20,000 nucleotides of DNA from IMG/VR virus record IMGVR_UViG_3300022752_006411, one strand, 5' to 3'. This DNA is from an uncultured virus (IMG/VR IMGVR_UViG_3300022752_006411). Taxonomy: Duplodnaviria; Heunggongvirae; Uroviricota; Caudoviricetes. Numbering within the stretch: position 1 is the stretch's first letter; every line of letters begins with the position of its first letter. The notes under the pieces are model-generated. The model made no database searches and was not told where the DNA came from. It saw only the letters and a program-made list of their open reading frames with translations. A program made the translations under genes and the position numbers. This document shows positions 4,025 through 19,738 of the stretch, piece after piece.

Positions 4025-4987
4025 TCAAGTTACAATATTTTTTAAATACCAATCTATTGTCTCTGTAAATCTTTGTTCTAAATTAGAACATTCCATTTCT
4101 TCTGTTTCGTCTAAAACAGAAGTCTTATTATACCCTTCAACTTGTTCTATGTTGCAATCGAAACCTTTTTCTTTTAGTATAGATTTCCAACAACTAGACC
4201 AATGGTAATTAGAATTTATTTTTTTACATCCTATATGAATAACACATTCATATTTTTTTGGAAAACAAAGAATGTCAGCAATAATTTTTACAGTATCAAC
4301 AACAGGAGTCCATTGATAAATACTTTTGTCTATTTTTATAGTTTGATTATTTATAGACTTAAAAATAAAGTCCGGAAGCGTTTTATCTAATTGTTGTCTA
4401 GGCCCAAATTGATCTGCGATTCGTATTATTTTTACATTTATATTATCTTTTACAGATGATAAAAACATGTCTTGACATGCTTTTGAAGCAGAAAAAGAAT
4501 TTGTTGGATTGAATGGAGAATTTTTACCAAATCTAAAATTTCCTTCTTCAGAATAAAGTGCTTCTCCATAAACTTTACCAGTGGATATTTGAATAAAATT
4601 TTTTATATTTTTATAGCCTATTAATTTACATAAATTACATGCTATATTTGAATTATTATTAAATAAATCAAAATCTGTTGCGGCATTAATATCTGATGCA
4701 AAGTTTATTATGTCTGTTTCTGTAGACCACTTTATTCCATATTGAATGTCTATGGTGTTGTTTATATCTTTTCTTAAAAAGACAAAACTTTTATTTGAAT
4801 AATTTTTTATAAATGAGTTTATTAAATCATTATGAAAATTAAAATTAAATCTAGAAGAACGGTTTATTTTGTCTAAAAAATAAACCATTTTATAATCGCA
4901 TAATATGTCAGGTCGCTCAAGCAAATGCTCTAAAAAATTTATGCCCACAAAACCAGCAGAGCCGGTTATTATAAGTTTTTTTGTCAT
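4025..4987 (-). CDS. NAD-dependent epimerase/dehydratase, RmlB (dTDP-glucose 4,6-dehydratase)-like, catalytic residues substituted
   Basis: TGSAGFVG Rossmann motif, ISTGKVYG (cf. ISTDEVYG), NSFSASKA (cf. SPYSASKA), FGPRQ. Confidence 0.75.
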   Translation of the reverse strand: MTKKLIITGSAGFVGINFLEHLLERPDILCDYKMVYFLDKINRSSRFNFNFHNDLINSFIKNYSNKSFVFLRKDINNTIDIQYGIKWSTETDIINFASDINAATDFDLFNNNSNIACNLCKLIGYKNIKNFIQISTGKVYGEALYSEEGNFRFGKNSPFNPTNSFSASKACQDMFLSSVKDNINVKIIRIADQFGPRQQLDKTLPDFIFKSINNQTIKIDKSIYQWTPVVDTVKIIADILCFPKKYECVIHIGCKKINSNYHWSSCWKSILKEKGFDCNIEQVEGYNKTSVLDETEEMECSNLEQRFTETIDWYLKNIVT

Positions 4988-6021: not shown

Positions 6022-6291
6022 TTAAATTGTGTTGTACTTAGAAAGAGCTTCAAAAATAGAAACTAATTGTTTTTCTCCAAAATTAGAAAAAGACAACAAA
6101 GTTTCTTTTTTTTGAGCTAAAAGATGGCCAAGATTAGTGATTCCATTCGATTCAAGAAGATTTATTAATCTTTGCTTAACTCCCAGTTGTTCCAAATTTG
6201 AAATTGAATGATTTTCTTCAACTCCAATTTTTATTGCCTCCAAAGCTTCGTTTGAAATTTCAGGAAGCGAATTAAAACACTTGGTCTTCAT
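6022..6291 (-). CDS. stand-alone RNA polymerase alpha-subunit C-terminal domain (alpha-CTD)-like protein
   Basis: SISNLEQLGVKQRLINLLESNGITNLGHLLAQKKETLLSFSNFGEKQLVSIFEAL matches the alpha-CTD pattern (I..L.LS.R..N.L...GI..v.dL......L....N.G.KSL.EI...L). Confidence 0.75.
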   Translation of the reverse strand: MKTKCFNSLPEISNEALEAIKIGVEENHSISNLEQLGVKQRLINLLESNGITNLGHLLAQKKETLLSFSNFGEKQLVSIFEALSKYNTI

Positions 6292-6603: not shown

Positions 6604-7878
6604 TCACGCGGCACTTTTTGACTTGAAAACACTTTCTTCTCCCTTCACAATACTGTCGGTAATTATCATTTTCTTCAATTTGAACTCAGACAACTCAAAA
6701 GTTATTGGATTCATAATCTTGGTAACAACTCTTCTCAACGCTCTAGCTCCAGTCTTTTCTTTGATTGCCATTCTAGCAATTTCTCTAATCGCTCCGTCTG
6801 TGAACTCAAGTTCTATTCCGCTATACAAAAATTGCTTTTTATACTGCTTTAACAAGGCATTCTTGGGTTCGGTCAAAACATGAACAAGTTCATCTTCGGA
6901 CAACTCCTCCAAACAAGTTTGAATTGGAAGTCTACCAATAAATTCAGGGATCATTCCAAATTCAACAAGATCTTCTGATCTTATCTGTTTCAATAGATCA
7001 TTTTTGCTTAATTCTTTTGCAGACTCAGAAGATCCAAATCCAATAGACTTTTTGCCTAGTCTTTTGCTGATTATATCTTCGACTCCAACAAAAGTTCCTC
7101 CACAAATAAACAATATATTTGATGTGTTTACCTGTAAGAACTCTTGTTCCGGGTGCTTTCTTCCGCCAACAGGAGGAACATTACAAGTTGTCCCTTCAAG
7201 CATCTTCAACAAGGCTTGCTGAACTCCCTCGCCAGAAACATCCCTGGTTATAGAGACATTGCCGCTAGATCTGCCGATCTTATCAATTTCGTCAATATAC
7301 AAAATTCCCATTTCTGCTTTTGATATATCCATGTCAGCAGCCCTAACCAATCTAAGGAGAAGATTTTCAACGTCTTCTCCGACATATCCAGCTTCAGTGA
7401 CAGTTGTGGCATCTCCAATGGCAAAAGGAACGTCTAAAATCTTGGCTAACGTAGAGGCCAGCAAAGTTTTGCCAGAGCCAGTTGGGCCAATCATAAGAAC
7501 ATTACTTTTATCAATTTGAGTGTCAGCAAGTTCTTTGTCTTCAATAGTCTTAGACAAGTCTTTGTCCATGAGCCTTACGTAATGATTGTAAACGCTAACG
7601 GCCAAGTTCTTTTTGGCCTCATCTTGACCGCAAATATACTCATCTAATTTCTTAACAATGTCTTTGGGAGAAGACAACTTAATGCCTCCAGACTTTTTTG
7701 AAGATTTTAAAGAAGAAAGTTTTCTCTCCATGATTTGGGAGGCAGTGTGGATACAATCTTCGCAAATGTAAGATTTTTCAGCAGGGCCACCTTCAATCAA
7801 TGGCCCAATTTCTTTAGAAGCCTTCCCGCAAAAATTACATTTCTTTTCTTCACAACTTTTTGTGCTTTTCTTTGCCAT
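6604..7878 (-). CDS. clpX: ATP-dependent Clp protease ATP-binding subunit ClpX
   Basis: C4 zinc-binding domain (CNFC/CEDC), GPTGSGKT, GYVGEDVE pore loop, YIDEIDK, RDVSGEGVQQALLK, RKHP, IGF ClpP-docking loop, TGARALR. Confidence 0.97.
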   Translation of the reverse strand: MAKKSTKSCEEKKCNFCGKASKEIGPLIEGGPAEKSYICEDCIHTASQIMERKLSSLKSSKKSGGIKLSSPKDIVKKLDEYICGQDEAKKNLAVSVYNHYVRLMDKDLSKTIEDKELADTQIDKSNVLMIGPTGSGKTLLASTLAKILDVPFAIGDATTVTEAGYVGEDVENLLLRLVRAADMDISKAEMGILYIDEIDKIGRSSGNVSITRDVSGEGVQQALLKMLEGTTCNVPPVGGRKHPEQEFLQVNTSNILFICGGTFVGVEDIISKRLGKKSIGFGSSESAKELSKNDLLKQIRSEDLVEFGMIPEFIGRLPIQTCLEELSEDELVHVLTEPKNALLKQYKKQFLYSGIELEFTDGAIREIARMAIKEKTGARALRRVVTKIMNPITFELSEFKLKKMIITDSIVKGEESVFKSKSAA

Positions 7879-7928: not shown

Positions 7929-8711
7929 TCAAACCTGATCGTCCGTAAACTTGGCTTTTCCTTCAGCTTTATTTGATAAAAATGAACTCCATTTATTTTT
8001 TATATAATTCATATTATTTTTAACGTGTTTTGAAAAATCATTTTCTTTCAAAACTTGAATTGTTGTTTTATTAGCAAAATGATGAACAAGATTTGAAGAA
8101 TAACAAGCATATATTTTTTTATTTTTACTTCTGACTCTCAATGCAAAATCAGCATCTTCACAATAAGCAAATTTTAAATTATCATCAAAAAGGCCAAAGT
8201 TTTCATAGGTATCACGAGAAAAACACATGCAATAACCACACACATAATCTATTTCGTATCCTTTTCCCTTTTCAATTCCTCTTCCTTCATGATTTAATAT
8301 TCCGCCATCGTAACCAACAATTGCGACATCTTTATTTTTTTCTAAAAATCCGATCATCACACTGTCCCAATACCTATCAACCATCGTATCTGAATTTAAT
8401 AAAATAATATATGGATTTTGAGTGTCCTGTATCATTTTATTATTTGGAATAATAAAGCCAACATTTTCATCACTATAATATAATTTGATATTTTTATTTT
8501 CTTTGGCAATTTTTTTTAAGTAACTTGAAGTTTCATTTTTAGAAGCATTGTCCCAAATATATAAATTAAATTTTTTAGTATTTTTATAAATTGAATCAAT
8601 ACAATTTTTAATGTACTTAAATTGATCATGCACAACAATTAAAATATCTTTTTTAATTCCTTTTGTATAATCGACCAACAAAAGTTCTTCTTTTATTTTT
8701 TCAAGATTCAT
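7929..8711 (-). CDS. glycosyltransferase family 2 (rhamnosyl/galactofuranosyltransferase-like)
   Basis: WDNAS, NVGF...NN, ILLNSD (DxD-like), GLFDD..AYCEDADF. Confidence 0.85.
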   Translation of the reverse strand: MNLEKIKEELLLVDYTKGIKKDILIVVHDQFKYIKNCIDSIYKNTKKFNLYIWDNASKNETSSYLKKIAKENKNIKLYYSDENVGFIIPNNKMIQDTQNPYIILLNSDTMVDRYWDSVMIGFLEKNKDVAIVGYDGGILNHEGRGIEKGKGYEIDYVCGYCMCFSRDTYENFGLFDDNLKFAYCEDADFALRVRSKNKKIYACYSSNLVHHFANKTTIQVLKENDFSKHVKNNMNYIKNKWSSFLSNKAEGKAKFTDDQV

Positions 8712-9283
8712 TTATTATCTTTCGTACTTTGCATTAAATCACGAACATTATCTTTGCAAAATCCATGTTCGCCACGTTCAATGAACTCATAAATAACCCC
8801 TGTTAGCTGACTTGGTTTGGTAAAAACCTGAGTTAAACCAGGACAAGTCAAAGGATTTTCAGATGCAAACTCAGCATATCCTTTTTCCTTCCATTCTTTC
8901 ATGGTTTTTTCTACACTTTCAACCTGATAAGCCATGTGATGAACTCCACCTATTCCATCTCTTCTTTCAACCCATTTTCCAACAATAGAATCTGGCGTTC
9001 CATCAGATACAAATATTTCTGGAGGAAGATGAAATTCTGCAAATAAATTTTCATCAATATCTTTATTTTCAGGAAAACTTGGACCAACATATTGTTTAAC
9101 CAGCCAATGTAAATTTTCTACTTTTGGCTTTTCTGGTGGTTCTAAAGCAATACATTTTGCTTTGCTGCCATCTGGAAAATCAATATCGAATTCTGTTTGT
9201 ATATTGTATCCGAATGCATCTATAAAAAATTGAGCAGTCTTTTTTCTATCTGCTGATCTGTAGGCGATGTGATCTAGTCTAAT
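8708..9283 (-). CDS. VOC/glyoxalase-fold metalloenzyme resembling the C-terminal domain of 4-hydroxyphenylpyruvate dioxygenase; putative ATT start
   Basis: Frame is open 116 codons upstream of the tracked ATG (8935): (M)RLDHIAYRSADRKKTAQFFIDAFGY...GIGGVHHMAYQVESVE...YEFIERGEHGFCKDNVRDL (191 aa), with His/His/Glu metal ligands. ATT at 9283 is preceded by GAGGAGG. Confidence 0.8.
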   Translation of the reverse strand: MRLDHIAYRSADRKKTAQFFIDAFGYNIQTEFDIDFPDGSKAKCIALEPPEKPKVENLHWLVKQYVGPSFPENKDIDENLFAEFHLPPEIFVSDGTPDSIVGKWVERRDGIGGVHHMAYQVESVEKTMKEWKEKGYAEFASENPLTCPGLTQVFTKPSQLTGVIYEFIERGEHGFCKDNVRDLMQSTKDNK

Positions 9284-9451
9284 GGTTGCCCCTCCTCGAA
9301 GCTATTGTTGCTTCGCAAATTTTAATTAAATATCATTCTTTTTAATTTAGTAACTTTAGTAAATTTTTTGCTCTGTGTAAAAAATACTTGATAGATCCAT
9401 AAAAAGAGGGCAGCATTAACATAAAAAATAATATTTTGACTATTTTATGTT

Positions 9452-9931
9452 GTGAAAGAAGAAGAATTAAAAAACATACCCGGCTATGACGAGAATTATT
9501 TTGTTGATAAATTAGGGAACATATACTCTAAAAAAAGCGGAGATTTGAAAAAACTCTCTGTCAATGATGATCACAGAGGTTATTTGATATGTGGCGTGAG
9601 AAGAAATGATGGCATTCAATATCCTTTGAAAGTGCATCATGCGGTCTTGTATGCCTTTGTGGGCCCAAAACCAGGGGCAAATTATGTGGGGATGCATATA
9701 GATGATGATTCCTATAACAATAAACTAGAAAATTTAAAATGGGGAACTATAAGAGAAAATCAAGAATCTAAATTGCAGAATAAAGCAAAAGCAAAACAGC
9801 ATAAAAGAAAACTAGATATTGAAAAAAAAGAAATAGCAAAAAAAATGATATCTTGTGGCTTTTCAGTTGAAGAAATATCTCTTCTAACAGGTTGGCCTTT
9901 AAAAAAAATAGAAAAAGAATTAAGCAGATAG
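9452..9931 (+). mobile_element. free-standing NUMOD4-HNH homing endonuclease with C-terminal HTH-like tail
   Basis: IPGYDENYFVDKLGNIYS (NUMOD4), VHHAVLYAFVGPKP, HIDDDSYNNKLENLKWGTIREN (HNH_3); oriented opposite to its neighbours. Confidence 0.85.
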
Positions 9932-10012
9932 AAGAATTAAAAGGCGGCGAGGGCCAAATAGAAATAAAAAAATGGTACAGCCCATTTTAAATTTAGGCTT
10001 ATAGTTATTTTT

Positions 10013-11980
10013 TTATGAATTTGCAAATAAATCCAGCCATTCTTTGAAATTTAATTTCAATTGTTTTTGTGGCTTTTTGAAAATTGGCTTTTGTGCCAAT
10101 TGCTTTTGATTATTTGCCATATCTTTATTGAGCGCTATTGGCTTTTCGACATCCAAACGATCTTTTTGTGCATCACCTAAAGTTGCAGAATCTTGATTAT
10201 AAGTTTGTCTATTTCTAATAAACATCTCAAATAACTTGGCTAATTTTTTAACATAAAAATCCCAATTATTATCTAAGTTCTTTAATCTTTTTATAACTTC
10301 TGCATTTTTATATAAATCTAAAGCCAATGAAATACTAAGATCAAAATAAACCCAGCCAGTTAATTTTGTTAAGGTTTTATCTTCCTCGGATTTCTCGGAA
10401 CTGAAGGGTGAAAGACCGCTCATTGAATTTGTAAAAAATAAATTAAAATTATTATATGTTACCTTAAAAGGAAGAACTTTATATTGATTTATTAGATTAG
10501 CAAATTCTTTGTTCCATTGGGTGATGTAAACTTTTCCGCCATTGTTATTTAGGTAAGTTCTTTTTGTAACGTAATCTTTTATGTATCCTATTCTTTCAGG
10601 ATCGTTTGTTTTTATAGTAAAATCTTCATCGTCTAATTCCATGCTAAAATTTTTGAATTCAATTTTTTCTGATAAGTCTTTTATGTAACCCTCTTCTAAA
10701 AGAGCCTTATGAACCTTGCCAACGTGTTCTTCAAAATCCCTATCAACTTCATCAACATAGTCTAAAAAGTGTTCGAAATCAGTTAGCTCATCATAGTGAC
10801 GATCACCTTCATTAAACATGAATCTAAAGTTGTATGAATTTGCATCTTCGTCTATCTCAACATCTTCTAATCCATGAATATCTAAAGCATCTTCTACTAT
10901 TCTTTTCACAATTTTATAATTGGGATTACTCCAACTTCCTATTTCAATCGTAAACATTTTTTTGGAAATTGAGAATCCGCTAAAAGCAGAATATATTAAA
11001 TAACGATCTTCAATATCTAAACTAACATCTATATGTTTCCAATTAGAATTGTGATCTTCTAACGCTCTTTGTGCCCTTTCATAAACTCCATCATCTTCGT
11101 CCTCGTCTTCATCGTCTTCATCTTGACTTCTTTTTCTTCCGGCAACAGAAACATCAAAAAAACTAGACCAAACTTTACCCGTGTCGTTATCTTGGTAACT
11201 TCCACCTTTTAATTTAAATTTTTCGTACCCTTCAACTGGATCTATCTTGCCTATTGAATCATTTTGTGCAGTTTTTGCCCAATTTTTTACTGCACTTAAA
11301 AATCCTACGTTTTTAATTCCATATGTTCTCAATTCTGGCATCAATAAGTTAATATTGCCGTCTGTGAGTCTTCTTAGTCTAAGTCTTTCAAGAGGAACAA
11401 TTCCATTTACGCCTCGATCATAATCTTTAAATATTTCTTTGTCCTGTAAATTGACCTTCTTGAGATCTGAATTTTTTACTACATAAGCAATTGCTCCACC
11501 TGTTTTCGCTTCTTGTCTTGCACATTTATAAAATTGACCATCTGGGCTGTGGCAACTGCTTATTCCATCATGATCACTCATTCTAAGAACATCTATTGGA
11601 CTTCTTGAAATTACTATAGAAGCACCGACTTCGTTGTTCTTTAAATTTTCTCCATTTTTTTGCCACCAATCTAATAATTCTCTTTGGTTGTTTGATTGCA
11701 GGATCTTGCCAACTTTTTCTGGTCTTAGTTTTTCTCCCTGTTGTGTTTTTATTTTTTTATAAGCTTGTTTTTTATTTATAAGATCTTCGTAGTCAACTTC
11801 GTAGCCAAGATCTTGCAAACTTTTTATTAATTTATTTATATTTTCATCTTGCTCTAACGGCACAACAATTCTGAGTTTGTTGCCAAAAATATTATTAAAA
11901 TGAAGATCTCTTTCTGGGTTTATTTTTTCAAGATCTTTTTCACTTACTTCTCTTAATTTTAGATATTTTATAAAACTCAT
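10013..11980 (-). CDS. large hypothetical phage protein
   Basis: Likely start ATG at 11980 (MSFIKYLKLRE..., 655 aa); internal ISRSPIDVLRMSDHDGISSCHS motif, acidic linker, C-terminal LNFKEWL. Confidence 0.8.
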   Translation of the reverse strand: MSFIKYLKLREVSEKDLEKINPERDLHFNNIFGNKLRIVVPLEQDENINKLIKSLQDLGYEVDYEDLINKKQAYKKIKTQQGEKLRPEKVGKILQSNNQRELLDWWQKNGENLKNNEVGASIVISRSPIDVLRMSDHDGISSCHSPDGQFYKCARQEAKTGGAIAYVVKNSDLKKVNLQDKEIFKDYDRGVNGIVPLERLRLRRLTDGNINLLMPELRTYGIKNVGFLSAVKNWAKTAQNDSIGKIDPVEGYEKFKLKGGSYQDNDTGKVWSSFFDVSVAGRKRSQDEDDEDEDEDDGVYERAQRALEDHNSNWKHIDVSLDIEDRYLIYSAFSGFSISKKMFTIEIGSWSNPNYKIVKRIVEDALDIHGLEDVEIDEDANSYNFRFMFNEGDRHYDELTDFEHFLDYVDEVDRDFEEHVGKVHKALLEEGYIKDLSEKIEFKNFSMELDDEDFTIKTNDPERIGYIKDYVTKRTYLNNNGGKVYITQWNKEFANLINQYKVLPFKVTYNNFNLFFTNSMSGLSPFSSEKSEEDKTLTKLTGWVYFDLSISLALDLYKNAEVIKRLKNLDNNWDFYVKKLAKLFEMFIRNRQTYNQDSATLGDAQKDRLDVEKPIALNKDMANNQKQLAQKPIFKKPQKQLKLNFKEWLDLFANS

Positions 11981-12076
11981 ATATGTTATATACAAAAAAG
12001 ATACATAGTTTTAGACAAAGCCAAAAAATTTATTAAATAACTCTAATATTTTAAATTCTAATAAATAGGACAAATT

Positions 12077-12290: not shown

Positions 12291-12872
12291 TCATCTAGCG
12301 AAAAGACGCTTTCTGTAGTTGACTTCGATAGAATCTTTTCTGTCTCTAACTACGACTTCATACTTGCCATAGTCGTAAACCTTGCCATTTCCGACCAGGG
12401 TGCCACGAACAGCCTCTTTGCAAGAACACTGCGGCTTGCAAATCTGAACATCCTGAGCAGTCCTAACCGTAACTTTATTGCAGCCGTCGCAACAGGTTTC
12501 ACATCGAACAGCCTCAACAACGTCTGGGACTGCGTTGGGGGCAATATTCCTCTTGTTTCTATAAATAATAGGCTTGCAGCTACCATTGGCACAATTGCAG
12601 CCAGCCGGTGCGGTGGCAACAACTGGTGAGGTTGCGGCGGTTGCGGCAGTAGCAGCAGTAGCAGCAGTAGCAGCAGTAGCAGCAGTAGCAGCAGTAGCAG
12701 CAGTAGCAGCAGTAGCAGCAGTAGCAGCAGTAGCAGCAGTTGCGGTGTTGGCAGTAGCAGCAGTTGTTGCTTCAGTGGCCAAAGTTGGCTCATTCTTAAG
12801 AACGCTCTGCTCTTCTGCAAAAATATTGCAAGTCAAGAAACTAAAAACAAATAAAAACATAAAGTTTTTCAT
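12291..12872 (-). CDS. secreted Cys-rich protein with (Thr-Ala-Ala)n repeat
   Basis: Start ATG at 12872 after SD AAGGAG; Sec signal peptide MKNFMFLFVFSFLTCNIFA; 12 TAA tripeptides; Cys-rich beta-strand C-terminal domain. Confidence 0.8.
   Translation of the reverse strand: MKNFMFLFVFSFLTCNIFAEEQSVLKNEPTLATEATTAATANTATAATAATAATAATAATAATAATAATAATAATAATAATSPVVATAPAGCNCANGSCKPIIYRNKRNIAPNAVPDVVEAVRCETCCDGCNKVTVRTAQDVQICKPQCSCKEAVRGTLVGNGKVYDYGKYEVVVRDRKDSIEVNYRKRLFAR
12651..12740. repeat. perfect 9-bp tandem repeat (AGCAGCAGT)x10 encoding Thr-Ala-Ala
   Basis: Ten identical units, plus two degenerate units at 12633-12650. Confidence 0.95.
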
Positions 12873-12899
12873 AAACACTCCTTAGGTAAAAAAAATTAA

Positions 12900-14035: not shown

Positions 14036-14239
14036 ATGCTAGTATTGAGCAGAAAGAAAGACGAAACAATAATTGTTAGAATACCAGGCAGAGAAGATAT
14101 AAAGCTGACTGTGGTAAGAATTGACAACCTAAACAAGGTTAGAATAGGTGTAGAAGCAGACAAAGACGTAGTGATACTACGATCAGAACTTGATGAAAAA
14201 ATACAAAAAGAAATGGCTTCTCAAGCTGACAATCGCTAA
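14036..14239 (+). CDS. csrA: carbon storage regulator CsrA/RsmA (copy 1)
   Basis: MLVLSRKKDETI...VRIGVEADKDVVILRSEL; short insertion (RIPGRE); SD AAGGAG. Confidence 0.92.
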   Translation: MLVLSRKKDETIIVRIPGREDIKLTVVRIDNLNKVRIGVEADKDVVILRSELDEKIQKEMASQADNR

Positions 14240-14246
14240 TTAGAAA

Positions 14247-15128
14247 TTATAAATTATTTAAATTTGTTCCATAACTATTTTTAAATTTATTTGCTGTTTC
14301 AATTAGTTGAGTTTTAGTAATCCATTTGTTGTTGTATGCTATTTCATGTGGAGAGCCTACCAAAACATCCTGTTGTCTTTGAATTGTTTGAACAAAATTC
14401 GATGCATCCATCATCGAATCAAATGTTCCTGTGTCGAACCATGTGGCTCCACGATTCAATTGAATAACTCTTAATTTCTTTTTATCATGATAAATTTTAT
14501 TTAAATCTGTTATCTCCAATTCATTTCTAAAAGATGGCTTTAAATTCTCAACATACTTATAAACATTGTTTGGATAAAAATAAAGACCAGTAACAGCAAG
14601 ACTGCTTTTTGGTTTTTCTGGCTTCTCCTCAATACTTACAGATAACTTGAAATCTTTATTCAAATCTTTTACTTCAACAATTCCAAATCTCTCAGGGTCT
14701 TTAACCTTAATTGCAAAAACAACAGGAAATTTTGATTTGTTTGCTTTTTTTAATAAGCCAGTTAGTCCAGCACCATAAAACAAATTATCTCCTAAAATCA
14801 AACAACTTCTTTTGTATTTTTTAATATTTTTGCCAAAATGAAAATTAGCAATCTTAAATGCTTCTGCTATTCCATTCGGTTCTTGTTGAGTTGCAAAATG
14901 AAGATTGATTCCTAAATTATGATTCTCAAATAATTTTTTAAATATTTGTTGTTCCGAAGGTGATGTGATTATTAAAATGTCTCTAATCCCAACAAGCATT
15001 AAAGTTGATAAAGGATAATAAACCAACGGCTTATCATACACGGGCAAAAGTTGTTTGGTTATGCCCAGTGTGGTAGGATAAAATCTAGAAGATTTTCCTG
15101 CCGCTAGTATTATGCCCAAAGTTTTCAT
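14247..15128 (-). CDS. rmlA: glucose-1-phosphate thymidylyltransferase RmlA/RfbA
   Basis: GIILAAGKSSRFYPTT, KQLLPVYDKPLVYYPLSTLM, LILGDN, EEKP, GLYFY, RNELEITD, WFDTGT. Confidence 0.92.
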   Translation of the reverse strand: MKTLGIILAAGKSSRFYPTTLGITKQLLPVYDKPLVYYPLSTLMLVGIRDILIITSPSEQQIFKKLFENHNLGINLHFATQQEPNGIAEAFKIANFHFGKNIKKYKRSCLILGDNLFYGAGLTGLLKKANKSKFPVVFAIKVKDPERFGIVEVKDLNKDFKLSVSIEEKPEKPKSSLAVTGLYFYPNNVYKYVENLKPSFRNELEITDLNKIYHDKKKLRVIQLNRGATWFDTGTFDSMMDASNFVQTIQRQQDVLVGSPHEIAYNNKWITKTQLIETANKFKNSYGTNLNNL

Positions 15129-16204
15129 TGATCTAAAAGCTCGCTTATAGATCCGCCTTCATAATGAGTTCTTCTTATTGCTTCTGCAAATAAAGAAACT
15201 GTTTTGCAAACATGCAACCTTCCTCTCCATTGATCTTTTATCAATTTTAAAGGAGGGACAGTGTCGGTAACTATTAGCCTTGGAACGTCCTTCAGATTTT
15301 CATTAGATTTTTCTGTAAAAACGCCATGAGTTGCACATACAGCCCACACTTCGCCACCATATTTTTTAACGGCATCACAACAAAGCTTAATTGTTCCACC
15401 CGAAGCTATTATATCATCGTATATTATTATTCTTTTTTCCTTAATGTCTCCACTAATTTCTCCACCGCTCTCTTTAAGATCCCCAGAAGGATTCCTTTCT
15501 TTATCCAGATGAACAACAGGTATCTTATTTTGTAAATTAAGTCTTGATTCCAATTCGTTTCTAAATTTCTTAGCTCTTCCTAAGCCTCCACTATCCGGGG
15601 CCAGAACAACAATATCAGATTCTTTTTTGTTTAAAACAAAATCTTGATATAGAAAACCAGAAACGCTGTCTTCTATCATTATTCCATCTTTGTCATAACC
15701 TCCGCAGACAAAATCAGCCAAAGGCTTTTTTGCCTCTAGATTATCAAACAAAACTCTCATCGACATTGCAGATTGAGTTGCCGATAAATTATGAACGTCC
15801 ATTGTTATCAGTCTTGTGAAGTGCATAGTTTCTAATAACTTTGCACTATAGCTGGTGTATATGCCAGCCCTAGACTCTGTTTTTCTATCTTGTCTTTGAT
15901 AAGCAAGATAAGGAACAACAAGGGTTATTCTTGATGCTCCTGCATCCTGCAAAGAGCCAGCAAAAAATAATAATTTTATAAACTTGTCGTTTACTGACTG
16001 TTTATTGTCTGAAAATAAAGAAGAAATGATGTAGCAGTCGGAAGCCCTTACATTTCCTTCCCTACCTACAGTGCTTTTAATATAAGGCTCGCCATCCACA
16101 AAAGTTTTTTCTTGCCTTGGAGTAAGTTGTACACCAAGACTTTTGGCAACTTTTCTAGCGAAGTCCTCGTAACCATCAACACCAAAAAGTCTAAGATTTT
16201 TCAT
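15125..16204 (-). CDS. prs: ribose-phosphate pyrophosphokinase (PRPP synthetase)
   Basis: FVDGE, PYLAYQRQDRK, MDVH, APDSGG, IIYDDIIASGGT PRT motif, ATHGVF, VTDTV; ATGA overlap with rmlA. Confidence 0.93.
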   Translation of the reverse strand: MKNLRLFGVDGYEDFARKVAKSLGVQLTPRQEKTFVDGEPYIKSTVGREGNVRASDCYIISSLFSDNKQSVNDKFIKLLFFAGSLQDAGASRITLVVPYLAYQRQDRKTESRAGIYTSYSAKLLETMHFTRLITMDVHNLSATQSAMSMRVLFDNLEAKKPLADFVCGGYDKDGIMIEDSVSGFLYQDFVLNKKESDIVVLAPDSGGLGRAKKFRNELESRLNLQNKIPVVHLDKERNPSGDLKESGGEISGDIKEKRIIIYDDIIASGGTIKLCCDAVKKYGGEVWAVCATHGVFTEKSNENLKDVPRLIVTDTVPPLKLIKDQWRGRLHVCKTVSLFAEAIRRTHYEGGSISELLDQ

Positions 16205-16956: not shown

Positions 16957-17592
16957 TTAAAAATTGTAATTTCCTCCCGAATGTGGTTTTCTACACTTAA
17001 CAATCCAAGAAACGTCGTATTCTTTTTGGCCAAAATTGTCGATAGTAGAATTTAATTTTCTTAATATCAAACCTTCAATTTCATCTGATTTTAAAAACTC
17101 TTTGTAATGAAATTCAAAATTATCCTTCCAAGTTTCAGCAAGCCAAATATCTTCTGTCACATATAAGGCCAATTTATTTTGCTCTAAAACTTTAGGGCTT
17201 CTACAAATTTTTTCTAAAATTAGAAGTCTGTCTTGTTGAGGCGTATTAATTAGATATTTTCCAGAATGAAGAACATCAAATAAAATTATTTTTTTCTTAT
17301 AATACTGGCTTTTAGTTTTATGATCTAAAAGTTCGCCATTCAACCAATATTCTTTATCTTCTTCTAAGTCTAAAGATAAAATTTGATCAATATGATTCTT
17401 GGTCAAAGAAAATAATTTTGGAGGAGTTCCGTGTCTAGTAAAAATTTTAATTTTTCTATCACGGGAAATATTTATTACAATATTGGTTCCGTTAAATTTT
17501 CTTTGTGCAACCCACTTTCCAGACTTTTCATATTCAAAAAGCTTATTGGAAGGGATTCTAATATTTGGATGAGGCGGAAATAAAGCTTTCAT
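16957..17592 (-). CDS. ATP-dependent ligase-superfamily nucleotidyltransferase (adenylation domain only)
   Basis: Motif I AQRKFNG, Ia FTRHG, III LNGEL, IIIa LFDVL, IV EGLILRK, V WIVKCRK; protein ends about 8 aa after motif V. Confidence 0.8.
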   Translation of the reverse strand: MKALFPPHPNIRIPSNKLFEYEKSGKWVAQRKFNGTNIVINISRDRKIKIFTRHGTPPKLFSLTKNHIDQILSLDLEEDKEYWLNGELLDHKTKSQYYKKKIILFDVLHSGKYLINTPQQDRLLILEKICRSPKVLEQNKLALYVTEDIWLAETWKDNFEFHYKEFLKSDEIEGLILRKLNSTIDNFGQKEYDVSWIVKCRKPHSGGNYNF

Positions 17593-17684: not shown

Positions 17685-18383
17685 ATGAAGAAAATTAAAT
17701 TTTACACTATAGATGCATATTTGGGAGCAATACCCGAACCAATTCCAGCGCATGAAATGCCGCCTGATTGGTTCAAAACTATGAATTCAAAAATTGACGA
17801 CAAAAAAGCAACCGCTATAAACAATTGCACAATTAAAATGTGTCCGGGGATTATAGATTCATTTTCATACGGATACATAATTCCTGCTTGGTGCGATATA
17901 ACCATGTGGTGGGATGATAAAAATCAATTACAAATAGAAACAGGATGGGCGGATAAAAGTGCGATTCAGGGAGTTTCAGAAAATCAATTTAAGAATTTCC
18001 AACTTCCAAAAAATCATAAAAGAGTAATGATTAAAATGACAATTCCATGGAAAGTTGAAACTGATCCGGGAACCAGCATACTTGTCGCTCATCCCAAATG
18101 GAGAAGTGATAACTTTACTTTATATGAAGGAATGGTTGACAGCGATAGCTATGTAAATAATATTCACGCTATAATTTCATTCGATCCAAGAGAACAGGTA
18201 AATATAAAAAGAGGCCAGCCTTTAGTCCAAATCATTCCTTTAATTAGGGAGGATTGGAAAAGAGAAATTAAACTGTGGGGCGACAAAGAAAATAGAAAAT
18301 TTAATAAACAGCAAAACGCTCTGTTTTCATATGGTGTCTGCGGCTATCTGAAACACTTTTGGAAATCTAAAAATTTTTATTGA
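17685..18383 (+). CDS. conserved phage hypothetical protein (DUF6065-like / dUTPase-like beta fold)
   Basis: PIPA...PDWFK, TIKMCPGIIDSFSYGYIIPAWCD, PWKVETDPG.S.L..HP, GMVDSD, IKRGQPLVQIIP; family recalled from aquatic phage genomes, not searched. Confidence 0.6.
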   Translation: MKKIKFYTIDAYLGAIPEPIPAHEMPPDWFKTMNSKIDDKKATAINNCTIKMCPGIIDSFSYGYIIPAWCDITMWWDDKNQLQIETGWADKSAIQGVSENQFKNFQLPKNHKRVMIKMTIPWKVETDPGTSILVAHPKWRSDNFTLYEGMVDSDSYVNNIHAIISFDPREQVNIKRGQPLVQIIPLIREDWKREIKLWGDKENRKFNKQQNALFSYGVCGYLKHFWKSKNFY

Positions 18384-18564
18384 AAGATTTATTTGGTATT
18401 TTTTTATTATTGATCTTATCATATATTTCATCTCTATAGATCGGAATTTGTTTTGGAGCTTCAATTCCAATTTTAACTCTGTTGTTCTCTACTTCTAAGA
18501 CAATTATTTCAATGTCATTTCCAATAATTATAGATTCGTCAATTCTTCTTGTTATAACAAGCAT
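18367..18564 (-). CDS. csrA: carbon storage regulator CsrA/RsmA (copy 2)
   Basis: Start revised to ATG at 18564: MLVITRRIDESIIIGNDIEIIVLEVENNRVKIGIEAPKQIPIYRDEIY; SD AGGGAG. Confidence 0.95.
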   Translation of the reverse strand: MLVITRRIDESIIIGNDIEIIVLEVENNRVKIGIEAPKQIPIYRDEIYDKINNKKIPNKSFNKNF

Positions 18565-18610
18565 TTTCAACTCCCTTTGTTTTTTTGTTTTATGACCAAC
18601 AAGAAAGATC

Positions 18611-18638
18611 ATTCTACAAAGGCGAAAAGTATTGTCAA
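18611..18638 (-). promoter_or_regulatory. sigma70-type promoter of csrA copy 2
   Basis: TTGACA-16 nt-TAGAAT. Confidence 0.75.
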
Positions 18639-18652
18639 CTGACTATCAAAAA

Positions 18653-19738
18653 TTAATATTTTTTAGCAAATAGCATGGCAGATCCAATAATTTGATGCAT
18701 GTCTCTGTATTGATACTCTCCTAGTCTACCGCCAAAAACAACATTTTTTGAATCTAAATTAATATATTTTTTATATAAAGAATTATTCTTTTCATCATTT
18801 ATTGGATAATAAGGAATTTTATTTGCTGAATAATCCTCAGGATACTCTTTTGTTATAACGGTTTTATTTGTCTTAATTCCTTCAAAATGTTTGTGCTCAA
18901 CAATTCTTGTGAATGGAATAGACTCGTCGGTATAGTTCATTATTGATATTCCTTGAAAATCTTCTTGATCAAAAACTTGACTTTCAAATCTTAAAGATCT
19001 GTACTCTAACTCTCCAAAAGCATAGTCATAAAATTGGTCTATTTGGCCCGTATAAATTATTTTTTCAGAACAATTTAATAGTTCTTTTTTGTTTTCAAAA
19101 AAATCAGTATTTATTTCCAACCTAATATTTGGATGATCTAACATTCTTTCAAATATCGCAGTATATCCATTAACAGGAACCCCTTGATATTTATCATTAT
19201 AATATCTATCGTCATAATTCAATCTAAAAGGAATTCTTTTTATTAAAGATGAGGGTAGTTCTGTGGGTTTTTTATTCCATTGCTTTTTTGTGTATCCCTT
19301 TATAAATATTTCATACAATTCTTCGCCCATTTCAGACAAAGCAAAATCTTCTAAATTGTTTGCATTTTCTTTTTTTCTAAAAGATTTTATTTTGTTAGCC
19401 GCTTCTTCTGGGGTTTTTACTCCCCAAATTTGATTCATAGTAGATAAATTAATGGGGAAGGAATAAATGTTGTTTTTGTAATTGACTTTTATTCTGTGTT
19501 GATAATTTATAAATTCAGAAAATCTATTTATAAATTTCCAAACTTCATAATTATTTGTATGAAAAATATGAGGTCCATATTTGTGCACGTTTATATTGTG
19601 AATTTTTTCAGTAAAACAATTGCCGCCTATATGATTTCTTTTGTCTATTACAAGCAATTTATAACCAAGCTCGGCTTTTATTCTTGCAAAAGTTGACCCG
19701 AATAATCCACATCCAACAACTAGATAATCAATCTTCAT
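18653..19738 (-). CDS. glf: UDP-galactopyranose mutase
   Basis: VVGCGLFG FAD motif, HIGGNC, HKYGPHIFHT, GYTKKQW, LEYRSL, FTRIVEHKHF, PYYP, GRLGEYQYRDMHQ. Confidence 0.96.
   Translation of the reverse strand: MKIDYLVVGCGLFGSTFARIKAELGYKLLVIDKRNHIGGNCFTEKIHNINVHKYGPHIFHTNNYEVWKFINRFSEFINYQHRIKVNYKNNIYSFPINLSTMNQIWGVKTPEEAANKIKSFRKKENANNLEDFALSEMGEELYEIFIKGYTKKQWNKKPTELPSSLIKRIPFRLNYDDRYYNDKYQGVPVNGYTAIFERMLDHPNIRLEINTDFFENKKELLNCSEKIIYTGQIDQFYDYAFGELEYRSLRFESQVFDQEDFQGISIMNYTDESIPFTRIVEHKHFEGIKTNKTVITKEYPEDYSANKIPYYPINDEKNNSLYKKYINLDSKNVVFGGRLGEYQYRDMHQIIGSAMLFAKKY

What the first reader, a model, noticed from the sequence alone, without database searches (positions are those of the whole stretch)
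8708..9315. VOC/HPPD-like gene apparently initiates at AUU behind a perfect SD and a hairpin
Seen: minus strand CGAAGC-AACAATA-GCTTCG-AGGAGG-GGCAACC-ATT-AGA-CTA-GAT-CAC. An in-frame TAG lies 7 codons upstream, and there is no ATG/GTG/TTG between it and the first metal-ligand motif RLDHIAY; the first in-frame ATG is 116 codons downstream, after both His motifs. The SD-to-ATT spacing is 7 nt and a 6-bp hairpin (9297-9315) abuts the SD. Known: AUU starts are rare and in infC act as a sensor of IF3 level. Inference: deliberate translational control tied to host initiation-factor status, or a recent ATG>ATT mutation.
Basis: partly seen in the sequence, partly recalled or inferred. Interest (0 to 1): 0.7.

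Follow-up and report, generated by a model that had tools for sequence, protein, structure and literature searches.

The report
Homing nuclease relic explains ATT start
A metal-enzyme gene of a freshwater giant phage really begins with the rare start codon ATT, most likely because a selfish DNA-cutting gene once settled directly in front of it and rewrote its start, a swap seen again and again in related phages.

Summary
In detail: ATT at 9283-9281 sits where relatives have Met1, behind AGGAGG at 7 nt, with no other start before His5. Contigs of three runs (possible sources) read ATT. It is not a private mutation: 14 distinct DNA alleles have a non-ATG start (13 ATT, 1 ATC), all with an SD, scattered over the family tree. 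New: the start is tied to one subfamily of free-standing HNH-type endonuclease genes whose last codons hold the SD and run into the ATT. Six of the 14 carry it or a relic, against 0 of 99 ATG/GTG loci. The window holds a 17-codon relic ending on the TAG of ATT-AG; the hairpin lies inside it. 24 of 25 subfamily proteins end in letters that fit this overlap (controls 20 of 95), 21 with a non-ATG start. Best reading: a footprint of a homing cassette, probably self-immunity by recoding the start codon. IF3 control is not excluded. Cleavage and translation are untested. The scan noted endonucleases displacing starts to ATT before, on other DNA.

The parts
8708..9283 (-). VOC-fold (methylmalonyl-CoA epimerase/glyoxalase/HPPD-like) metalloenzyme gene, 191 aa, starting at ATT; His5, His115, His116, Glu89, Glu166 invariant in 56 homologues
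   Evidence: (Pfam Glyoxalase_4, Glyoxalase over cut-off)
9281..9283 (-). ATT start codon at the Met1 position of the family; its last T is the first base of the relic's TAG stop
9291..9296 (-). Shine-Dalgarno AGGAGG, 7 nt before ATT, encoded within the last codons of the endonuclease relic
9279..9341 (-). Relic of the C-terminal codons of an HNH-type endonuclease gene (frame +2 to the VOC gene; 17 open codons 9332-9282, TAG 9281-9279, cut off upstream by TGA 9335-9333; no start codon, so not translatable)
   Evidence: frame; score 41 against a maximum of 25.5 in 81 ATG/GTG loci; HMM E 3.4e-4; best ATG/GTG locus E 1.4
9297..9315 (-). 6-bp hairpin abutting but not covering the SD; lies in the relic's codons
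   Evidence: significance inconclusive
9353..9381 (-). sigma-70-like promoter match (a second at 9456-9428); 2 found against 1.1 +/- 1.1 expected, so weak
9452..9931 (+). Divergent NUMOD4-HNH_3 endonuclease gene of a different family from the relic; absent from the syntenic ATG relative L324
7929..8711 (-). GT2 glycosyltransferase gene, ATGA-overlapped with the VOC stop (candidate for translational coupling), followed by clpX (6604-7878)
   Evidence: same order in L324

Best explanation
The ATT is a real start codon left by a mobile free-standing HNH-type (PacI-like fold) endonuclease cassette that is dedicated to the start of this VOC gene. The cassette sits directly upstream; its last codons supply the SD and run into the first codons of the VOC gene (stop on the TAG of ATT-AG, or two codons further in frame +1). 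In the window the endonuclease has decayed to about 60 nt and the ATT has stayed; the gene is translated from AUU through a strong, unpaired SD, probably below the AUG level. Shown: the anatomy, the recurrence and the association. Inferred: homing, and why the codon changes. The VOC coding sequence stays whole and contiguous after insertion, and upstream DNA is not conserved between phages, so the likely target is the conserved ATG-Arg-Leu-Asp-His stretch; the start codon is the one invariant triplet that can change without changing the protein, so ATG>ATT/ATC would make carriers resistant to their own nuclease.
For: Endonuclease gene or relic abutting the start in 6 of 14 ATT/ATC loci and 0 of 99 ATG/GTG loci (two of the six were in the model, the window and L179 were not); within the window's own broad clade 6 of 14 vs 0 of 12, p 0.017. 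Three full endonuclease ORFs (240-242 aa, 54-60% identical, PHROG 374 HNH at E 3e-31 and 8e-26 for the two scanned) end on the TAG of ATT-AG, in front of VOC genes from different branches and after different upstream genes. 24 of 25 proteins of the tight subfamily have C-termini that fit an overlap with the VOC start, against 20 of 95 more distant homologues; 18 read ATT, 3 ATC (one of these ATC or ATT), 3 ATG. Seven end in LD or LE, as L161 does in DNA, i.e. they run through ATT-AGA where ATG-A would have given a normal TGA stop, so the need for a stop does not explain ATT. Two of the three ATG-keeping endonucleases have lost one of two N-terminal repeats and nest beside an ATT member. Ile starts are scattered: 18 rows, 18 changes on a 193-row tree, and Met and Ile starts occur inside single 90% clusters (2 of 10 clusters). 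Empty-site counterparts exist: L022 vs L128, L086 vs L130, L324 vs the window. Co-conversion of flanking sequence by free-standing endonucleases is established (PMC2988022, section 17).
Against: No cleavage, homing or translation data; no RNA. 8 of 14 ATT/ATC loci show no relic, two of them lack the TAG (second codon CGx) and two have little upstream DNA. Three endonuclease proteins decode as keeping ATG, one of them full length (P0137, a weak 3-residue decode). The metagenome scan asked only for starts not ending in G, so endonuclease-plus-ATG loci there were not counted, and most of the 99 ATG/GTG loci belong to a more distant clade. Two-residue decodes are weak one by one (20 of 95 controls pass), and DNA confirms only four cases. 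The tree is FastTree with 73 of 190 inner branches open. No ATA allele was found although ATA also removes the G and initiates as well as AUU in E. coli extracts (PMC5499595, section 20): immunity then needs a pyrimidine, or ATT is simply inherited. Why ATT has not reverted in the window after the nuclease decayed is unexplained. The nuclease has D-R in place of the usual D-H and matched no Pfam family over cut-off and no PDB sequence; fold match to PacI only E 7.9e-3.
Confidence: 0.68

Rival explanations
1. ATT is selected for control of VOC (and coupled GT2) expression by IF3 level or nutrient state, as in infC; the endonuclease only hitch-hikes, or created the codon that was then kept for regulation.
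For: 13 of 14 non-ATG alleles are ATT, above Ile codon use in these genes (0.43; p 1.6e-4, alleles treated as independent, which a shared cassette would violate). AUU is the codon most repressed by added IF3 (PMC5499595, section 20). Related phage records encode IF3, including the ATT-bearing G002. ATT persists without a detectable cassette in 8 of 14 loci; one cluster has 15 of 15 members called from codon 10, as expected of a whole lineage without ATG (DNA not seen).
Against: 95%-identical relatives use Met; IF3 is also in ATG-bearing records (G001, G004, G006 contig 90) and the three phage IF3 frames read have an ATG near their start. It does not predict 21 non-ATG starts among 24 endonuclease overlaps. 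The hairpin is not conserved.
Confidence: 0.15
2. Start capture without immunity: the endonuclease inserted just after the ATG (or the first few codons), took over the original start, and the VOC gene fell back on a near-cognate codon in the cassette's tail, helped by re-initiation at the overlapping stop; ATT is kept by drift or by the TAG overlap.
For: The L130 endonuclease begins M-R-x-x-H-I like the VOC protein; His at position 5 in 8 of 25 subfamily members vs 2 of 95 others (kin are not independent). Earlier scan notes describe such captures (e1-137052, e1-1185133; unchecked). Stop and start overlap in L126, L128, L130.
Against: ATT is kept across endonucleases only 50-61% identical, including those ending in frame +1 where ATG would give both a better start and a stop; L126 and L128 show little likeness to the VOC start in DNA. 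This may describe the origin while immunity explains the upkeep.
Confidence: 0.12
3. The window's gene is a recently inactivated pseudogene or an assembly error.
For: Close relatives have Met; no expression data.
Against: Three runs agree; frame intact with all invariant residues of the family; SD of 5-8 nt at 4-7 nt in 14 of 14 non-ATG alleles; no ATA, CTH, GTH or TTH start among full-length homologues although the scan covered them.
Confidence: 0.05

Closest known systems
Free-standing homing endonucleases of T4-like phages (seg, mob; 'intronless homing', marker exclusion; PMC2988022, passages and section 17 read)
   Same: Endonuclease gene outside an intron, beside a conserved host gene, overlapping neighbours, moving with flanking sequence; decays to relics.
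   Different: There the cut site lies hundreds to thousands of bases from the gene, and the overlaps described are with the upstream ORF. Here the cassette overlaps the downstream gene's SD and start and goes with a changed start codon; the parts read describe no such case.
infC (IF3) AUU/AUC autoregulation (PMC5499595, sections 20 and 23 read)
   Same: AUU behind a strong SD; expected to be IF3-sensitive.
   Different: infC's codon closes a feedback loop; here the product is a metabolic-type enzyme, the codon switches among close relatives and follows a mobile element.
ShiLan hidden out-of-frame HNH in a phage methylase (PMC11855218, passages read)
   Same: HNH gene read in another frame than the host gene, homing between divergent phages.
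   Different: It lies inside the host frame and uses GTG for itself; it does not change the host's start codon.
Methylmalonyl-CoA epimerase (PDB 1jc4; TIGR03081) and HPPD/hydroxymandelate synthase (TIGR01263)
   Same: VOC fold; His5, His116 and Glu166 align with epimerase positions 12, 91, 141 (that these are its metal ligands is recalled); the C-terminal 150-186 stretch resembles HPPD; TM 0.57-0.68 to both.
   Different: Far below both cut-offs (51 vs 115 bits; 29 vs 277); single domain with an insertion; substrate unknown.
PacI (PDB 3ldy), HNH-type restriction endonuclease
   Same: Top fold match of the cassette's nuclease (E 7.9e-3, prob 1.0); invariant D-R, Y seven residues on, and N resemble its catalytic layout (recalled, not checked).
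   Different: The cassette protein has two N-terminal CxC beta repeats; 19% identity; no methylase seen beside it.

Membership tests
Free-standing homing endonuclease cassette | Endonuclease-family ORF outside intron or intein | tested here: met
   PHROG 374 HNH, HNH-type fold neighbours; VOC frame is contiguous; no Rfam intron match in 8600-10100. In the window only a relic.
Free-standing homing endonuclease cassette | Patchy presence with occupied and empty alleles at one site | tested here: met
   6 of 113 loci occupied or relic; empty counterparts L022, L086, L324
Free-standing homing endonuclease cassette | One nuclease lineage tied to one target gene across divergent hosts | tested here: met
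   24 of 25 vs 20 of 95 C-terminal fits; more distant family members precede other genes, mostly with ATG starts (64 distinct loci)
Free-standing homing endonuclease cassette | Cuts the empty allele and spares the carrier | not testable with these tools
   needs a cleavage assay
Free-standing homing endonuclease cassette | Co-conversion of flanking host sequence | tested here: inconclusive
   second codon AGR in 12 of 14 ATT/ATC vs 6 of 12 ATG alleles of the clade (read); weak
infC-type IF3-sensing AUU start | AUU/AUC with SD at normal spacing and no usable canonical start | tested here: met
infC-type IF3-sensing AUU start | Codon conserved among orthologues | tested here: not met
   Met in 95%-identical relatives; 18 Ile rows scattered among 193
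infC-type IF3-sensing AUU start | Output changes with IF3 level | not testable with these tools
   needs a reporter
VOC superfamily | Glyoxalase Pfam over cut-off and paired beta-alpha-beta-beta-beta fold | tested here: met
HPPD (TIGR01263) | Two-domain protein of about 350 aa over the family cut-off | tested here: not met
   191 aa, 29 bits vs 277
Methylmalonyl-CoA epimerase (TIGR03081) | Score over the family cut-off | tested here: not met
   51 bits vs 115

The most novel reading that the evidence does not exclude
A homing endonuclease lineage of giant phages targets the invariant ATG-plus-first-codons of a host gene and protects its own carrier by recoding that ATG to ATT or ATC, a change silent in the protein. 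Selfish DNA thereby spreads rare start codons laterally, leaves them behind when it decays, and puts the host operon under IF3 sensitivity in phages that often carry their own IF3.
Probability: 0.4. Interest if true: 0.8.

Novelty: new variant of a known kind. Interest (0 to 1): 0.62.

Why it matters
It gives a mechanism, other than regulation, for where AUU starts come from and why they recur, with a simple test (cut an ATG vs an ATT substrate). It shows a way for a homing element to invade the start of a gene without intron or intein and without changing the protein. It warns that gene callers truncate these proteins (the window's call would be 75 of 191 aa; 15 of 15 members of one cluster are called from codon 10), and it names a nuclease subfamily with a predicted target at a start codon.

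Tried and rejected
Rfam scan of 8600-10100: only a chance snoRNA match at E 1.5; no riboswitch or intron. No whole genome is held for the window, so IF3 in this very phage is unknown. No RNA holder listed; says nothing on expression. Genome-wide scan for other SD-plus-ATT starts in G001, G002, G003 and the window found only this gene, but it also missed the known ATT genes of G002 and G003, so it is insensitive. DNA-level alignment of the window's upstream 150 nt did not detect the relic (best ATT-locus score 37, best ATG-locus score 41); only the peptide tests did. L125 has a relic-like tail by eye but scored at background (21) and is counted as no relic. Viral-contig scans with the nuclease alignments returned only distant members, a pattern scan for Ile starts only the two known loci plus four copies of one unrelated match. 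Dropped: 35 of 55 matches that were not homologues or were internal matches (among them L127, L138, and the 16-codon L142/L162). Upstream in-frame canonical starts as an alternative: none in 7 of 14 alleles, and 6 of the other 7 lack an SD. TAG read-through and frameshift fusion were considered by reasoning only and set aside: homologues begin at this codon. No tRNA genes in the window. Literature searches listed no paper whose title or abstract start describes an endonuclease recoding a neighbour's start codon (two returned nothing); subscription papers and supplements were not seen.

Full report
1. Observation. The frame from ATT 9283 is open for 191 codons, and the first ATG/GTG/TTG in it is at codon 117. 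His5, His115, His116 and Glu166 are invariant in 56 homologues, so a protein from codon 117 would lack the N-terminal half of the fold. Contigs from three runs of three studies read ATT with no differing letters; they may be the window's source, and no raw reads were laid. The setting is a giant phage by inference: relatives lie on viral contigs of up to 436 kb and GenBank phage records of 595 and 636 kb; holders are lake and freshwater metagenomes. Ten other window genes show AGGAG- or GGAG-type SDs (read), so SD-led initiation is normal here. The host was not determined.

2. The gene. Pfam Glyoxalase families pass their cut-offs. Best sequence and fold matches are methylmalonyl-CoA epimerases (E 9e-8; 7e-11); hydroxymandelate synthase and HPPD follow with TM 0.64-0.68. 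Neither NCBIfam cut-off is reached. It is a VOC metalloenzyme of unknown substrate. Its stop overlaps the ATG of a GT2 gene, followed by clpX; L324 keeps this order with an ATG start.

3. ATT recurs. All 14 first viral relatives have ATG. Six of 120 listed homologous proteins have Ile at the Met position behind SD-like letters. A pattern scan of viral contigs gave 109 matches, 87 distinct: 80 ATG, 3 GTG, 2 true ATT homologues, 2 unrelated. A metagenome scan restricted to starts NT(A/C/T) gave 55 matches; 20 were homologues, forming 13 alleles: 12 ATT and 1 ATC, no ATA, CTH, GTH or TTH (L133 is cut after 12 codons). With the window that is 14 alleles. All have an SD of 5-8 nt at 4-7 nt; 7 have no in-frame canonical codon before the upstream stop, and 6 of the other 7 have one without an SD. 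On a 193-row FastTree the 18 Ile-start rows need 18 changes (many forks open). The window's nearest neighbours (95%) begin with Met. Two of ten 90% clusters hold both Met and Ile starts, and one has 15 of 15 members called from codon 10.

4. What comes with ATT. ATT-AG holds a TAG in frame +2. In L126, L128 and L130 a 240-242 aa ORF ends on exactly this TAG; in L161 its homologue runs two codons further in frame +1. They are 54-60% identical, match PHROG HNH endonuclease families, fold most like PacI and other HNH domains, weakly, and miss Pfam cut-offs and PDB sequences. The window's frame +2 reads 17 codons that resemble their C-terminus and ends on the same TAG. It scores 41 against a maximum of 25.5 in 81 ATG/GTG loci. 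With an HMM of the subfamily's C-terminus, 6 of 113 distinct loci pass E 1e-3, all ATT, the window at 3.4e-4 and L179 at 2.9e-6; the next is 1.4. SD and hairpin therefore lie in the relic's codons. The hairpin leaves the SD free and is not conserved.

5. The nuclease subfamily is tied to this site. A profile search listed 120 proteins. I took the 25 closest by identity and length before printing their ends. Their C-termini were tested for fit to an overlap with the VOC start: 24 of 25 fit, against 20 of 95 others; 18 read ATT, 2 ATC, 1 ATC or ATT, 3 ATG, 1 none. Short fits are weak singly; two are long (10 and 12 residues). Seven end in LD or LE, the frame +1 reading of ATT-AGA-CTA-G, where ATG-A would itself have been a stop. 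So ATT is kept where neither stop nor start would favour it. Two of the three ATG keepers share the loss of one N-terminal repeat and form a starred pair beside an ATT member. More distant family members precede many other genes, mostly with canonical starts.

6. Mechanism. Shown: anatomy, recurrence, association, empty-site counterparts (L022 vs L128, L086 vs L130). Inferred: the cassette homes to the VOC start and carries SD and start with it by gene conversion, as flanking sequence moves with T4 free-standing endonucleases (PMC2988022, section 17). Since the VOC coding sequence is left whole and upstream DNA differs between phages, the conserved first codons are the likely target, and ATG to ATT or ATC is the only systematic difference there. 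I read it as self-immunity (about 0.4 on its own; 0.68 for the cassette footprint as a whole). Start capture may describe the first insertion (His5 in 8 of 25 vs 2 of 95); I took this idea from earlier scan notes and tested it only this far. In the window the nuclease is gone, the relic has no start codon, so no coupling from upstream is possible, and translation would rest on the SD. In E. coli extracts AUU gave 0.74 and 0.48 of AUG and fell by half or more with excess IF3 (PMC5499595, section 20), so IF3 sensitivity is a likely side effect; related phage records encode IF3, as already reported for huge phages (PMC7162821, passages).

7. Against. No biochemical or expression data. Eight of 14 alleles have no relic. 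The ATG denominator in metagenomes is unknown, and most ATG loci are from a distant clade; within the near clade the test is 6 of 14 vs 0 of 12 (p 0.017). The lack of ATA and the persistence of ATT after decay fit the IF3 reading as well.

8. Literature and novelty. Seen: PMC2988022 (passages, section 17), PMC5499595 (abstract, sections 20 and 23), PMC11855218, PMC7162821 and PMC3014915 (passages); other papers only as search listings. Searches showed no paper on an endonuclease recoding the next gene's start codon; subscription journals and supplements were not covered. The scan has noted the same kind of event on other DNA (e1-137052, e1-1185133, e1-6020337, unchecked; read after my reading was formed). 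What this case adds is a population-scale association for one nuclease lineage and one target, and the frame +1 argument for immunity. Verdict: real feature, new variant of a known kind, interest 0.62.

Noticed in passing
window 14036-14239 (+) and 18367-18612 (-): Two CsrA genes (Pfam over cut-off); one CsrA lies within a few kb of the VOC gene in several relatives. CsrA binds GGA in SD regions (recalled), so it could act on this leader.
   Followed up: partly
L185, L186, L187, L193: Phage-contig IF3 genes; the three read have an ATG near the start rather than infC's AUU.
   Followed up: partly
window 10013-11995 (-): 660-aa ORF with no Pfam or NCBIfam match and no hit in the relatives tested; with the divergent NUMOD4-HNH gene it replaces a single 255-aa gene of L324.
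   Followed up: partly
window 12291-12878 (-): Signal-peptide-like N-terminus with a long TAA tripeptide repeat; relatives keep the C-terminal part with another linker.
   Followed up: no
window 6022-6291 (-): Stand-alone RNA polymerase alpha C-terminal-domain-like protein.
   Followed up: no
window 4025-4987, 14247-16204, 18653-19738 (-): Sugar-nucleotide genes: RmlB-like, RmlA-like, PRPP synthetase, UDP-galactopyranose mutase; also ClpX and a small ligase-like gene at 16957-17592.
   Followed up: no
viral loci L004, L027, L044, L046 and others: Many VOC genes of the more distant clade have no SD (53 of 73) and a TATAAT-like box just before ATG, which suggests leaderless mRNA. Earlier scan notes place such genes in a lysine-breakdown module (unchecked).
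   Followed up: no
L049, L066, L099: ATG allele whose frame stops after 9 codons, in three records.
   Followed up: no
L259, L261, L270: Genes after distant endonuclease family members where the open frame begins well before the first canonical start found; possible further non-canonical starts.
   Followed up: no
L188 (546-kb contig) and L189 (371-kb contig): VOC homologues on large contigs inside bacterial MAGs; probably phage contigs binned with cells, so no host evidence.
   Followed up: no
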